In this document: positions 25,900 through 46,933 of the stretch, in pieces | Layout of the letters: each line of letters starts with the position of its first letter | How positions within the stretch are numbered: the first letter of the stretch is position 1 | Assembly (NCBI RefSeq): GCF_004010195.1 | Contig: NC_057717.1 | Location: forward strand, 73,797,145-73,851,863 | From: Chiloscyllium plagiosum | Taxonomy: Eukaryota | Length of the DNA: 54,719 nt | Direction of reading: 5' to 3' | The notes under the pieces: model-generated | Database searches by the model: none | What the model saw: the letters and a program-made list of their open reading frames with translations, nothing else | What the model was told of the DNA's origin: nothing | Program-made: the position numbers and the translations under genes

Positions 25900-26560
25900 C
25901 CTATATCAAACTGCTATTTTTATTCTCAACCTATACCACAAACCACGTTTCTCACATATTAAGTAATCAACTGACCTTTGCAGAAACATTTGTATGTAGA
26001 TGTTTATTGTGTAAACAGGAAACCCATAGTGATCCTTTGCATTGCTGTACTGTTTCCATTGAGCTATTTGCAAACGCAAGACACAGATTTGACGTTTCTA
26101 CATTTCATGAAAGCTGAATATCAGGGGGGAAAATTCAGACAGTGTGAAGATCACAGCAAGAACGCCGTGTGAAAACAATGAATATCTTATGCATCGGTAC
26201 ACTTTTCTGTCTTGTGTCAGGTTAGACTTTCATACTTTTATTCCAGATAATTTTCATGGTAAAGGCAACAGGAAGTTCCATCTTGTTGAACGTAAAGCCA
26301 CTTTGACTATAATATTAGTACCATGTGGAACCAGTATTATTGGCTATGTGTAAAATTAACCAAGGGTCAACATCTAATGTATATTATTGGGATTAAGAAA
26401 ACAAATATACTGATGACTCTACGCAGTACTCTGGACTAATACACGTCTCTCTACCAAATGATGAATATAGATGATATGTTTATTAAGCAATTGTTTTTGC
26501 AAACAAAAAAAAGTCCATTGAGCAAATTTGGCTGCCAGTTTTCTTCTATTAAAATAATAA
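25900..26560 (+). promoter_or_regulatory. Candidate promoter/enhancer region upstream of the VJ exon
   Basis: Apparently TE-free island carrying ACCACA (RUNX-like, 25935-40), AGATAA (GATA, 26245-50) and ACAGGAAGT (ETS, 26268-76). These motifs are short and could be chance matches. Confidence 0.3.
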
Positions 26561-26672
26561 ATGCATTTGAATAGTTATCTCTTCCTTCCTGCTTTCACTC
26601 CATTCAGATTTTCCTTGATTAGTTCCATTTTTGCTAAGCCTGCATTTCTTGTGAAATATTCTGTTTTAATAG

Positions 26673-27011
26673 TTACTGCTGCTGAGAAAATCCTCCATCA
26701 GACTCCTCCTTTACAAACAGCTGCCGTTGGAACCACTGTAATGCTGAATTGCCACGTTGATTGGTATGCGAGTGGAGGTGTTCACTGGTACAAACAACAG
26801 CAACGAGAATATCTACAATTCGTTTACATAGTACGTAAACACTTTGCTTCAAATGGAAGATTTTCTGGAAAAGTCAACGCTGACTCGAAAATATATACGC
26901 TTGTGATTCAGAATGTGCAAAGAAATGATTCAGGTCAATATTACTGTGCAGCTAGGGAATTTTATGGAGTCGCCTACAAAATGGGAAATGGATCGAAATT
27001 GCTTATAACAG
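26673..27011 (+). CDS. Ig V-set exon with germline-joined J-like G strand (VJ exon)
   Basis: Acceptor ctgttttaatAG (26671-72) and donor G|GTAGGG (27012); 339 nt, phase 1-1. V-set hallmarks: LHQTP, B-strand Cys (MLNC), WYKQ, GRFSG, YTLVIQNVQRNDSGQYYC, then a CDR3-like loop AAREFYGVAYK and J-like MGNGSKLLIT (cf. FGxGTxLxV). Confidence 0.95.
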
Positions 27012-27641
27012 GTAGGGTTAAAAATAGTTTACTCGTTTCACCATCAATAACGAGGAATGTTGGACTATAATTTTGCATTACCTCTAGCAGTCTCAAGATC
27101 ACTCCAGTGCAGTGTGTAAGTGAATAAATAATTAGGATGATAAGACAGATGAATGCCAGTTGCACAGATAATGCAGGACTTCAGATTCCTGGAACACTGG
27201 GAATGAGTTATGGCTGATGGAAAATTTTACAGGTGATGGTTGTGTTTGAACAGAGCTGGGACGAAATTTCTTGTGGAATGTTATGCTACTGTTACTGAGA
27301 GCAATTAACCCTAAATTGGAATTGGTGAGAGAAAGAGAAGCGAATAGTTGAAGACAATTCTTGGGTTCACATTCGCTTGAGATTATGGGTGGCTTTTGCA
27401 TAGAGAGTTCCAAGTTAATGCGTGAAGACTGAAAACTGGAGAAATAAATGACGTCCAAAATAGAACTAACATGCTTGGCAAATAGCTAACAATATTTGGG
27501 AGCTACAGGCACGATTGCCATGTAGGAACATAATATTGTAACAATGACAGAGCTCTGGCTGAAGTAGGGAAAGACTTATTCTACAGATAGAAAATGAAAG
27601 ACACGAGGAGGAATAGAACTATATGTTTAACTGGGTACTTA

Positions 27642-27956
27642 GGGTGGCACGGTGATTCAATGATTAGCACTACTGCCTCACAGCGCCAGGGACCTGTTTT
27701 TGATTCCCGCCATGGGCGACTGTCTGTGTGGAGTTTGGACATTCTCCATGTCTGCGTGGGTTTCCTCTTGGTGTTCCGGTTTTCTCCCACAATCCAAAAG
27801 ATGTACAGTTAGGAGAATTGGACACACTAAATTGCTCTGAGTGTTAGGTGAATTAGTCAGTGGTAAATGTAGGAGAATGGATCTGGGTGGGTTAGTCTTC
27901 GGAAGGTTGGTTAAGCCAAATGGCCTGTTTCCACACTGTATGGAATCTAATCTAAT
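27642..27956 (+). mobile_element. HE1-like SINE in the V-C intron
   Basis: gggtggcacggtgattcaatgattagcactactgcctcacagcgccagggacc head; tail ggcctgtttccacactgta..aatctaatctaat. Confidence 0.9.
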
Positions 27957-27989
27957 GTAGTTCAGTGCTGTTTCAGAGGGGTCAACAAC

Positions 27990-30539
27990 CAATATCGAGT
28001 GAAGGAATGATAGTAGAACGAGTACACCAATTATTGTAGCGAAATGTAAATCACCTCGTGAAGGAAATCTGCAGGAAATTTCCAGGACTTGTGAATGGTC
28101 GTAACTGAAGACATTAATTAGACAAATGGAATCTGGTCATTTATGGCACAATGAGGAGCAGGATTTTGTATACTGTATTCAGAACAGATTCCTAAAAAAG
28201 GAGCATGAAGCATTGTCAAAATTGATCCTTGGAAATGAGGTGGGCAAATTTGCCTTTGGGCAAATATTTTGTAGACAATGGCCTTTGTATTATACGTTTC
28301 AGTATGGTGATAGGAAACAAGTTGGTACAAGCCAAAGTGGGAACAAAATCAGTTAGGGAAGAAGTTAGCATCAATGGGGCAAAAGCAGAGTTGTGCACAA
28401 TTGGCTGGAACAAATGATTGGTGAAAACAAAAAAAAATCAATAAGACTGTAAGATACAGGAGCAAAATCGCCCATCTTTCCTCAGACATAAGGCCTAATA
28501 CTGCTCAGAGTATTCAAAATGCGGTCTACCAGAGCATTCTACAGCCTAAGCAGCATATGTTTGCTCTCGGTTTCTAGTCATCTTGGAATGAATGACAACT
28601 TCGCATTTGCCATCCTAACTGCCAACCCAACCTATAGGTTAATCTTGACAGAATTCTGAACGAGTACTCATAAGTCACTTTGAACGTCAGTTACTAAAGG
28701 CTTCCACACTTAGAAAATAAGTCTGTGTTCTTCCTACCATAGTAGATAACCTCACACTTTTCCACATTGCATTTAATCTGCCACTTATCTGCAAAAGTGC
28801 CTCACATGTTTAAATTCTTTTATTTGAAACTCCCTGCTTCCTGAACACCACCTATACTTCCACTTACCTTTGCTTCATTTGCGAATATAGCAACAACACA
28901 TTCACTTCCAACGACCACATCGTTAATATTTAATGTGAACGGTTGTGGTCCCAACACTAACGCCTTTGGAACTCCACTAGTCACCGGCTGCCATCCTGAA
29001 AAAAAAAGATCACGTTATCCTTCCTCTCTGCCTTGTTCCAGCCAGCCAATCCTCTATCCATGCCAGTGCCTTTCTTCCTTCAAACTGGAGATGGATCAGG
29101 TATAATCAAATGATTTTTCTTAACGTGAAGATTGGTTTATCTTTCCACTCTGCCTTCTTCCAGTCAACCAATCTTCTATCCATGATAGTGCCTTGCCTCC
29201 TTCAAAACGGACATGGATCAGGTACAGTCAAGACATTTTTTAAACGAGATGATAGGACAAACAAGTTATGAGTTCCCTGGATAATAGTGGAGATAGAAAC
29301 TAAAATTAAACAGAAAAAAAATCGTGCTTATGACAGGTATGAGGCTGAATTAACATTAAGATCCAACAGCAACAATGCAGGTTTAGAGGGGAATTGAAAA
29401 AGCAAATAAGACAAGAAAAAGTACTTCCAAGACCACAATAACAGGTAACAGAAGAGGGAATCGCAAATCATCGGATTGGTAGATGCAACTATGAGTGGGT
29501 AATGGAAGAGTAGGGTCGATTCGAGTCCACAAGGTGATTTATACATTGAAGCGGGATCATAGCTGAGATGTTAAATGAATACGCTATATATTTATGGAAG
29601 AAGTGGATGTTGTCCCTGGCTATGGTGATAGCAGAGGATTTATTTGTCACTGTAAGAAGTCAGACAGAATCGTAAGCTGTAAGGATGACAACAAAGGACA
29701 TTGACAAGGTAGTGGATTGAATGGAAAGGTGATATATAAGGTTCAATGTGAGTTGAGTCACTTCGGTGGGAAGAATTTTGAAATACACAATAAAGTAGAT
29801 GGTACAATGATAAAGGAGAGCAGGAACAGGGGGACCTTGGTATGTATGTGCTCACATCATTGAAGGTGACAGGTCCTGTGCAGAGAGAGCAGTCGATGAA
29901 GAATGCTGTGCCCTTGGCTTTATTAATTGGAGCAAAAGGTCGAAGAGCAAGGAGATGTTGAAGTTTCAAAAGATGTGCTAGATATCAGCTGGCATGTTTT
30001 GTAATATTGTGGGTGTTACAGTATCGCTGAGAATACAAAACACTGGCAATAGGGCAGAAAAGATTTACAAGAATGTATCCAGGAATGACAAGTTTCAAAT
30101 ATGTTGATAAAAATAAGGAAGTAGGGTTGTTCTCTTTGGCGAAAAGAAAGATGAGAGAAGACTTGATCGATATTTTCAAAATCATGAGCAGCTTCTAGAG
30201 TAGAGGAGGAGAATCTTTTCCTGCTGCTGAAAGGAACGTGGACGATCGGGAACAATTTCAATATAAACAACAGTGTTGTGGAAATTAAACTTTATTTCAC
30301 CCAGCAAGTAGTTAGGCTATGGAATGCAGTGGCTTTAAATGTGGTGAGGGAATTTCAGTTGAGGCATTTGTAGAAACATTGGATTTTTTTTTAATGGAAG
30401 TAGTGTGCCGAAGACATACAGAAAGAAAATAAATCAAGAGCATTCGAATAAGAGTATGATGCTCGTTTACGGAGCCCATGCAGGCACAATAGGGAGAATG
30501 GTCCTGCTCAATGTTATAACAATTTTGTGATTCTGTGAT
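27990..30539. mobile_element. Old CR1 fragments filling the V-C intron (plus, minus about 28480-29070, plus)
   Basis: Degenerate ORF2 motifs; the last fragment ends in an attttgtgattctgtgat tail at 30539. Confidence 0.75.
29015..29250. repeat. Diverged tandem duplication, about 122 bp period
   Basis: ttatccttcctctctgccttgttccagccagccaatc...atggatcaggta at 29015 and ttatctttccactctgccttcttccagtcaaccaatc...atggatcaggta at 29137. Confidence 0.85.
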
Positions 30540-30557
30540 GCTTCTCCAACTCAACAG

Positions 30558-30860
30558 GTTCCCCAACTGTCTTTCTCTTATCATCACCACTGGATGAAAT
30601 GTTTCACATGGAATCTATCACATTGGTATGCTTAGTAAACAACGTGTTCTCTGATTCATTTCCCATCGGCTGGAATATTACCACAAGGGATAACAAGGCT
30701 TGGACGTATTCGGGGACAATTATCTCTGCTGGAGAATACGGTATCATAAGTCACTTCAGAGTCCCAGCAGAAACATGGAAACACGGAGCTTTAATCACTT
30801 GCTCAGTTCAAATCAACTCAGAAGAAATTCTTACCAGTGAAAATATCTCCTATAGAAGAG
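30558..30860 (+). CDS. Ig C1-set constant-domain exon
   Basis: Acceptor cttctccaactcaacAG (30556-57) and donor G|GTAAAT (30861); 303 nt, phase 1-1. SPTVFLLSSP, TLVCLVNNVFSD, C-strand Trp (IGWN) and SHFRVPAETWKHGALITCSV resemble Ig light-chain/TCR constant domains. Confidence 0.92.
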
Positions 30861-31467
30861 GTAAATGTTGATATAGATGATGTTTATTGATTTTGCATAA
30901 TCTTCTCCCTTTTTATATCTGCCTCCGATCATTTGGACTTTTATTGATTGCATTATTCAATGCCACACTGTTTAGCTGTACGAATAATGCTCTGAATCTA
31001 TTTGAGCAGGCCATTCGTGTATACTAAGGTAAAGTAAATAACTCCTTGCTTTCACAGATTAAAATTGGAAAAATGAAGCTGTATTTACAAACTACAGCTG
31101 AATTTCAAAACAAATTCCATTCTGGAAACAGATGATTTGACACGTCAGAAAAACGCCATTATTCCTGTTCTACACAAATATCGCCCTGGCAAAGTTTTGG
31201 TAGTGCCATCACCACAAACCCAAGTCCAGATATTTTATATTCCAAAATGCACTTAAAATACCTGATGCCTAAAACTCTGTACACATTTCGAAATGCGGAG
31301 CGCTGTCTGAGGACAGAAATTGTCACCTCAAATCCGGATTCGGACACTGGAGTGACACCATGATATTAGAACATGAAACAGAACAGTACAACACAGGAAT
31401 AAGCCAATCACCACATGTCTGTGTTGACCATGATTCTATTTTAAACTAATCTCGCATTACTGTTTAC

Positions 31468-31781
31468 TTAGATTAGACTAGTTACAGTGTGGAAACAGGC
31501 CCTTCGGGCCAATATGTCCATATCGACCCGCCGAAGCACAACCCAGACCCAATCCCCTGCATTTACCCCTTCACCTAACACTACGGACAATTTAGCCTGG
31601 CCAATTCACCTAACCTGCATATTTCTGGTTTGTGGGAGGAAACCGGAGCACCTGGAGAAACCCACGCGGACACGGGGAGAATGTGCAAACTCCACACAGA
31701 GAGTCGCCTGAGGCGAGAATTGAACCTGGGTCTCTGGCGCTCTGAGGCAGTGGTGCTAACCAATTTGCCACCGTGCCACCC
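31468..31781 (-). mobile_element. HE1-like SINE (reverse) in the C-TM intron
   Basis: ttagattag..acagtgtggaaacaggcccttcgg ... tgccaccgtgccaccc. Confidence 0.9.
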
Positions 31782-33996: not shown

Positions 33997-34107
33997 AGTC
34001 CCAACGTGTCAATTGCCATTTAATGTATTACTGGAATTCATTGATGATAATGCTCCCTCTCCTGATGTTAGCTGCCACAAGTTGGATTTACAAGAAATGT
34101 TATTCAG
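33997..34107 (+). CDS. Stalk + transmembrane exon
   Basis: Strong acceptor tttctctgtcttctccAG (33995-96) and donor CAG|GTAGGA; 111 nt, phase 1-1, open in the required frame. Encodes ESQRVNCH-LMYYWNSLMIMLPLLMLAATSWIY-KKCYS: a hydrophobic span followed by a KK stop-transfer. Confidence 0.85.
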
Positions 34108-36409: not shown

Positions 36410-36465
36410 GTAACTGCGGGAAAGAATCATCCACAGATGCTAGACCACGTAATCCAGAGCAGCAG
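36410..36465 (+). CDS. Cytoplasmic exon 1
   Basis: Branch-like gctaat, acceptor ttttctttctttgcttcAG (36408-09) and donor CAG|GTAAAT; 56 nt, phase 1-0. Encodes GNCGKESSTDARPRNPEQQ and sits in a small unique island between two CR1 fragments. Confidence 0.75.
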
Positions 36466-46888: not shown

Positions 46889-46933
46889 ACTGTCTATGCT
46901 CATTTAGCATTCACTGTAGACTCAACGGTCTGA
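46889..46933 (+). CDS. Terminal cytoplasmic exon with tyrosine motif (TVYAHL) and stop
   Basis: Branch-like gactaat (46861-67) and acceptor tttcttccatAG (46887-88). Phase 0 gives TVYAHLAFTVDSTV-TGA (46931-33), followed by unique AT-rich UTR-like sequence and AATAAA. Confidence 0.7.
   Translation, partial: TVYAHLAFTVDSTV

What the first reader, a model, noticed from the sequence alone, without database searches (positions are those of the whole stretch)
26939..27011. J-like G strand is germline-fused to V, with no RSS and a non-canonical MGNGS motif
Seen: YYC-AAREFYGVAYK-MGNGSKLLIT lies in a single exon. I found no heptamer/nonamer after the YYC and no separate V or J segment elsewhere in the window. 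FGxGT has become MGNGS, which also creates an N-glycosylation sequon (NGS). Known: sharks carry germline-joined Ig genes produced by germline RAG activity, but those usually keep a canonical J and Ig C regions. Inference: this exon is either primordially unsplit or an ancient germline join that was repurposed. The retained diglycine bulge suggests V-V dimerisation.
Basis: partly seen in the sequence, partly recalled or inferred. Interest (0 to 1): 0.7.

Follow-up and report, generated by a model that had tools for sequence, protein, structure and literature searches.

The report
Shark non-rearranging TCR-shaped inhibitory receptor
The fused V-J exon is real and belongs to a transcribed shark gene shaped like one T-cell-receptor chain that carries no rearrangement signals and likely acts as an immune brake; it is one of a tandem cluster of an old vertebrate family, and the odd MGNGS motif is just one changed residue of the family's usual FGNGS.

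Summary
Observation confirmed. The exon (26673-27011) is the VJ domain of a six-exon gene: leader, VJ, C1, transmembrane and a tail ending in TVYAHL, 298 aa. Contigs from two studies show it spliced. It lies in a cluster of 13 V-type exons or remnants on G000:C8 (7 intact genes). All 11 readable copies are V-J fused. The 780 kb hold no good RSS and no free J, whereas 35 of 37 unjoined V exons examined elsewhere in the genome carry an RSS. Relatives with the same layout occur in sharks, rays, sturgeon, lungfish, amphibians and reptiles, and V and C1 trees group them apart from Ig and TCR. A recent join from a light chain is rejected (AU p about 1e-5). It most likely belongs to the PRARP/VJC1 family; orthology to chicken PRARP could not be tested. 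Primordially unsplit versus a join in the jawed-vertebrate stem stays open, with a weak lean of the V toward TCR alpha/delta-like V genes.

The parts
26178..26220 (+). Exon 1, split leader (ATG to phase-1 donor)
   Evidence: GT-AG model; leader-to-V joint in contigs of runs X3 and X4
26673..27011 (+). Exon 2, single VJ exon (V-set, A to G strands)
   Evidence: Pfam V-set E 4.6e-16; V-to-C1 joint skipping 3546 nt in X3 and X4
26948..26980 (+). CDR3-equivalent loop, 11 codons; same length in all 7 intact paralogues and the C-less one, and in 26 of 29 elasmobranch family proteins
26981..27010 (+). J-like G strand MGNGSKLLIT; M replaces the family's F; N-G-S sequon at 26987-26995 is family-wide
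30558..30860 (+). Exon 3, C1-set domain of the family's own clade
   Evidence: Pfam C1-set E 2.3e-7; tree 98/94 starred; RNA joints
33997..34107 (+). Exon 4, stalk with conserved Cys plus uncharged transmembrane helix
   Evidence: An X3 contig runs from the C1 exon end into this exon's first letters; Cys invariant in 22 of 22 rows of alignment A2; helix 231-264 in the orthologue's model
36410..36465 (+). Exon 5, cytoplasmic
   Evidence: GT-AG model and match to zebra shark P0001; splice not tested with RNA
46889..46933 (+). Exon 6, phase 0, TVYAHL ITIM/ITSM-like motif and stop
   Evidence: gives 298 aa, the same length as P0001; splice not tested with RNA
26831..26836 (+). Cryptic splice donor inside the V exon; its use frameshifts the C1 exon (92-aa product)
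   Evidence: Joint 26830 to 30558 in X3 and X4; translation

Best explanation
The exon is the fixed VJ domain of a transcribed, non-rearranging V-C1-TM receptor gene, likely a shark member of the PRARP/VJC1 family, that is predicted to form disulfide-linked dimers at the cell surface and to send an inhibitory signal through its tail tyrosine. Shown: gene anatomy, splicing of exons 1 to 4, absence of RSS, a tandem cluster of fused paralogues, relatives across jawed vertebrates. Inferred steps: the CDR-like loops bind a germline-defined ligand; the stalk Cys links two chains; the phosphorylated TVYAHL recruits an SH2 protein such as SHP-1/2 or a SAP-type adaptor. Diversity comes from gene duplication, not RAG. 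The F>M change is a variant of this orthologue group (V in zebra shark) and would if anything loosen Fv-type V-V packing.
For: Gene model of 298 aa, matching zebra shark P0001 (69% in V, 298 aa). RNA joints in two studies, with no indels listed. 13 V-type exons or remnants in C8:73.57-74.35 Mb; 7 intact genes each ending in a separate TxYAxL exon, none with a central charged TM residue. 11 of 11 readable copies fused. 0 RSS at <=1 mismatch and 4 at 2 mismatches (3.5 expected) in 780 kb, none within 600 nt of a V. Control: 35 of 37 unjoined V exons examined elsewhere in G000 have an RSS with <=3 mismatches. Same-layout relatives named from rays, sturgeon, paddlefish, reedfish, lungfish, coelacanth, caecilian, newt, turtles, lizards and alligator. 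C1 tree: 35 family rows on one side, 98/94 starred. V trees: shark plus bony type-A rows together, 98/88 (with one type-B row), 95/90, 91/92. CDR loops among 7 paralogues pN/pS 0.73 against 0.42 in framework, uncorrected.
Against: No returned protein is named PRARP and the two defining papers are not held, so family identity rests on recalled features. No listed, named hit came from a bird or a chimaera; many hits were unnamed or unlisted. No ligand, cell type or signalling data. The raw single-cell runs gave no reads on the exon, and contigs drop rare variants, so rare junctional change or hypermutation is untested. The exon structure of the bony-vertebrate relatives could not be read. 26.6 kb of the 780 kb are N. 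An out-of-frame splice form is about as deep as the full form in both runs. In one V tree an RSS-bearing V fell inside the family group.
Confidence: 0.75

Rival explanations
1. Origin rival, same present function: the family arose from a RAG-made V-J join of a TCR alpha/delta-like gene that was fixed in the germline before sharks and bony fish split, so it is a derived product of rearrangement and not a precursor relic.
For: The nearest outside rows to the family V are RSS-bearing V genes from the C44 TCR/IgH region in three of four V trees: inside the group; sister 94/87, whole set 61/93; 48/85. The J-like strand, phase-1 J-C splice and stalk Cys look TCR-like.
Against: None of these joins is a starred sister link, and under the mixture model the same V went elsewhere. 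That V was picked because it scored well against the query. Family plus IgL (p 0.14) and family plus UrIg (p 0.38) are not rejected either. The family C1 joins none of the sampled TCR or Ig C clades; TCR alpha/delta C could not be found. TCR labels are my own inference.
Confidence: 0.25
2. A recent, shark-specific germline join of a light-chain or TCR cluster, like joined Ig kappa or lambda genes.
For: Sharks do this: a joined kappa-type gene in this genome groups with RSS-bearing kappa V at 100/99, and lambda is wholly joined (PMC12227049). Relatives on C39 sit beside a light-chain cluster.
Against: AU test rejects window plus light-chain V, p 9.4e-6; shark family plus TCR alpha/delta V without the bony rows, p 0.04. 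C1 is not of Ig type. The gene has TM and tyrosine-motif exons. No split paralogue or RSS.
Confidence: 0.03
3. This copy is a decaying or decoy member: loss of the F, two large introns and frequent mis-splicing mean it mostly makes non-signalling or secreted products.
For: F lost; cryptic donor used at depth 5.7 against 7.4 (X3) and 9.8 against 10.2 (X4); an X4 contig runs 375 nt past the C1 exon; 5 of 13 cluster members are broken.
Against: Intact 298-aa frame; an orthologue of the same length kept in another shark family with V at the same place; tail motif intact; full splice forms present. Contig depth is a poor measure of level.
Confidence: 0.12

Closest known systems
PRARP / VJC1 genes (Fu et al. 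2019, PMID 30770416; Ohta et al. 2019, PMC6761025). Neither paper is held; titles seen in a reference list, features recalled.
   Same: Non-rearranging joined VJ, V-C1-TM layout, tail ITIM/ITSM-type tyrosine, stalk Cys, two subtypes, range over bony fish, amphibians and reptiles.
   Different: Here a tandem expansion of 7 intact genes in a shark, and this copy has M for the J-like F. Direct orthology untested. The six answered literature searches turned up no description of shark members.
UrIg and UrIg2 (PMC12227049; parts 1-4 of 8 read)
   Same: Shark, single VJ exon, split leader, C1 domains.
   Different: They have 3 to 11 C domains; UrIg is secreted; V and C fall in separate clades from this family (UrIg labels are my inference).
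Germline-joined shark Ig light chains (kappa, lambda)
   Same: V and J in one exon, followed by one C1 exon.
   Different: They nest inside rearranging isotypes and have no TM or tyrosine tail; the grouping is rejected.
TCR chains
   Same: L-VJ-C1-stalk Cys-TM order; J-like strand.
   Different: No RSS, no charged TM residue, long tail with tyrosine motif.
NKp30/NCR3, NITR, SIRP (joined-VJ innate receptors; listed in PMC11599192, passage)
   Same: Germline VJ-type domain used as an innate receptor; NITR and SIRP use ITIMs (recalled).
   Different: Recalled: NKp30 has no C1 and a charged TM; NITR has V-I; SIRP has V-C1-C1.

Membership tests
PRARP/VJC1 | V and J in one exon, no RSS | tested here: met
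PRARP/VJC1 | V-C1-TM layout | tested here: met
PRARP/VJC1 | Canonical J-like FGxG strand | tested here: inconclusive
   Family F in 28 of 29; this copy has M, with both glycines kept
PRARP/VJC1 | Cytoplasmic ITIM/ITSM-type motif | tested here: met
   TVYAHL exon; tyrosine nearly invariant in A2; function untested
PRARP/VJC1 | Orthologues in bony fish, amphibians, reptiles | tested here: met
   trees 78, 90, 99
PRARP/VJC1 | Orthology to the chicken PRARP sequences, and synteny | not testable with these tools
   No listed hit named PRARP; papers not held; no framework gene recognised in the C8 flanks read, about 150 kb each side
PRARP/VJC1 | Disulfide-linked dimer; lymphocyte expression | not testable with these tools
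   Stalk Cys invariant in 22 of 22; tissues of the runs not given
Germline-joined Ig light chain | V nests in a rearranging isotype | tested here: not met
   AU p 9.4e-6
Germline-joined Ig light chain | IgL-type C, no TM exon | tested here: not met
UrIg/UrIg2 | Three or more C1 domains in the UrIg clade | tested here: not met
   One C1 exon; separate clade
Rearranging TCR | RSS-flanked V and J segments; charged TM | tested here: not met

The most novel reading that the evidence does not exclude
The PRARP-type family is not a relic of the unsplit precursor but a TCR alpha/delta-like V-J join fixed in the germline before sharks and bony fish split, then turned into an inhibitory innate receptor and expanded in sharks into a diversifying multigene array.
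Probability: 0.2. Interest if true: 0.7.

Novelty: new member of a known kind. Interest (0 to 1): 0.35.

Why it matters
Intact VJ-C1 genes are the candidates for the gene that the RAG transposon invaded; the current favourite is UrIg2 (PMC12227049). A shark array of one-V, one-C1 membrane receptors would extend the PRARP-type family to cartilaginous fish and give a second set of candidates, or a test of whether such genes are old joins. It also points to a germline inhibitory receptor system in sharks. The specific motif flagged, MGNGS, is ordinary.

Tried and rejected
Homodimer prediction of the zebra shark orthologue ectodomain: no verdict, score 0.01, no evidence either way. No RNA holder listed by the run search. 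Raw single-cell runs X8 and X9 gave no reads on the exon, so junction diversity is untested. RNA was laid on 26000-31600 only, so the last two splices are untested. Synteny on C8: only rhodopsin-type 7tm genes and a zinc-finger fragment were recognised. TCR alpha C search found nothing. The first C tree held two mis-cut rows and was redone; its bootstrap had not fully settled. The V tree left out 25 rows (type B/C, long branches, near-copies). PDB sequence and fold searches gave only antibodies and TCRs; fold matches were 21-25% identical. The Atlas gave unnamed V-C1 clusters. The one supplement of PMC10751288 held none of PRARP, VJC1, PAQR6. Fu 2019, Ohta 2019 and the UrIg paper are not held, and they or their supplements may already list shark members. 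Rejected: recent join, light chain, UrIg, and sequon novelty.

Full report
Observation. The stretch 26939-27010 reads YYC-AAREFYGVAYK-MGNGSKLLIT in one frame and ends at a GT donor. It is the end of a V-set exon. No usable RSS lies near it, and no other J-like motif exists in the window.

The gene. Six exons give 298 aa: leader, VJ, C1, stalk plus TM, tail, and a phase-0 exon with TVYAHL. Public contigs from two studies, X3 and X4, show the leader-V and V-C1 joints, and an X3 contig continues from C1 into the TM exon. One contig per run spans the CDR3-J part without gaps; they differ from the window by single bases only (Y116D in X3; A84D and a silent change in X4). Contigs drop rare variants and the raw runs gave no reads here, so junction diversity was not really tested.

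The cluster. The window lies at G000:C8:73.80-73.85 Mb. I read 73.42-74.52 Mb. It holds 13 V-type exons or remnants: 7 intact L-VJ-C1-TM-TxYAxL genes, one V-TM gene without a C1 match, and 5 broken copies. Three paralogues match proteins that the search labels Chiloscyllium plagiosum. All 11 copies with a readable G strand are fused, and all but the window's have F; the 8 unbroken ones have an 11-codon loop. In 780 kb (26.6 kb N) there is no RSS at 0 or 1 mismatch, 4 at 2 (3.5 expected) and 49 at 3 (28 expected; partly a repeat, not examined further), none within 600 nt of a V exon. One intergenic FGxG match has no donor. As a control, 35 of 37 unjoined V exons that I examined elsewhere in the genome have an RSS with at most 3 mismatches.

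The motif. Of 29 elasmobranch family proteins, 28 have F and one has V: the zebra shark orthologue P0001, which is sister to the window gene in every tree. 22 read FGNGS and 25 keep the sequon; the loop is 11 residues in 26 and 7 in three ray proteins. Among 117 V domains scored from 119 proteins, 100 keep the sequon. So the sequon is old, and the one peculiarity is loss of the F in this orthologue pair. The model of P0001 (mean pLDDT 82) breaks strand G at the N-G, as a bulge would. The F normally packs between paired V domains (established knowledge), so the motif does not argue for Fv-type pairing. A stalk Cys invariant in 22 of 22 aligned relatives is the better hint of a dimer.

Relatives and trees. 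Same-layout proteins are named from sharks, rays, sturgeon, paddlefish, reedfish, lungfish, coelacanth, caecilian, newt, turtles, lizards and alligator; I could not read their exons. The C1 domains of 35 family rows form one side at 98/94, apart from IgL, IgH, UrIg-like and TCR beta/gamma C. The type-A V domains of sharks and bony vertebrates group together. A joined kappa gene, by contrast, stays with RSS-bearing kappa at 100/99. A recent join from a light chain is rejected (p 9.4e-6), and a shark-only link to TCR alpha/delta V narrowly (p 0.04). The deeper root is unresolved. TCR alpha/delta-like V genes are the nearest outside rows in three of four trees, but weakly; IgL and UrIg links are not rejected; alignments have about 95 columns; and outgroup labels are my inference from sequence, RSS and position.

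How it likely works. A germline-fixed surface receptor, likely a disulfide-linked dimer, that binds a ligand through CDR-like loops and dampens the cell through its tail tyrosine. No TM of the 7 intact genes has a central charged residue. The loops vary more than the framework among paralogues (pN/pS 0.73 against 0.42, uncorrected), which fits ligand diversification by duplication or relaxed constraint. Ligand, cell type and signalling are inferred.

What is known. PMC10751288 (passages) and PMC11599192 (passage) name PRARP among joined-VJ genes. The features of PRARP that I recall from Fu et al. 2019 fit; that paper and Ohta et al. 2019 are not held, and no listed hit carries the name. PMC12227049 (parts 1-4 of 8 read) covers UrIg2 and does not mention PRARP or VJC1 in its main text. 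Searches showed no account of shark members, but most subscription papers are outside the library. Other notes of this scan reached the same reading in other sharks; they are not independent support.

Verdict. Real, expressed, non-rearranging, old; likely a shark member of a known family. The flagged motif is ordinary. The origin question remains open and testable.

Noticed in passing
window 26831: A cryptic donor inside the V exon is spliced to the C1 exon in both runs at a depth close to the full form; the product is frameshifted, 92 aa.
   Followed up: partly
window 30558-31235: An X4 contig reads through the C1 donor. That frame ends RRGKC-stop, which would give a secreted light-chain-like V-C1 with a terminal Cys. 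It may be unspliced RNA, since X4 also holds other intron pieces.
   Followed up: no
G000:C39:27.66-27.88 Mb (L041-L043, L066, L069, L074): A second site holds a broken type-A copy, two type-B VJ-C1 genes with a degenerate G strand, 7tm genes, a light-chain cluster with joined V-J and a HlyIII/PAQR-family exon (PAQR6-like by recall). In zebra shark, types A and B come from contigs of the same length, so the C8 array may have moved from here.
   Followed up: partly
G000:C8:73.55, 73.88, 74.05, 74.19, 74.27, 74.30 Mb: Single-exon rhodopsin-type 7tm genes are interleaved with the receptor genes, as on C39, suggesting co-duplication.
   Followed up: partly
G000:C8:74255000-74256443 (L019): A minus-strand paralogue has V and TM exons but no C1 match; it resembles the 209-aa protein P0059.
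   Followed up: no
G000:C8:73688143 (L013): An intact paralogue has FRKEL, having lost both glycines; the same motif occurs in a Chiloscyllium punctatum protein (P0014), so the bulge motif is dispensable in this family.
   Followed up: no
window 27012-30557: The V-C1 intron is 3546 nt here against roughly 80-90 nt in the paralogues; it contains repeat copies.
   Followed up: no
G000:C9:2.0-4.1 Mb, C34:26.08 Mb, C1:23.35 Mb (L051, L052, L054, L055): Further joined-VJ exons without RSS, outside this family; the C9 and C34 ones group with the C39 light-chain V.
   Followed up: partly
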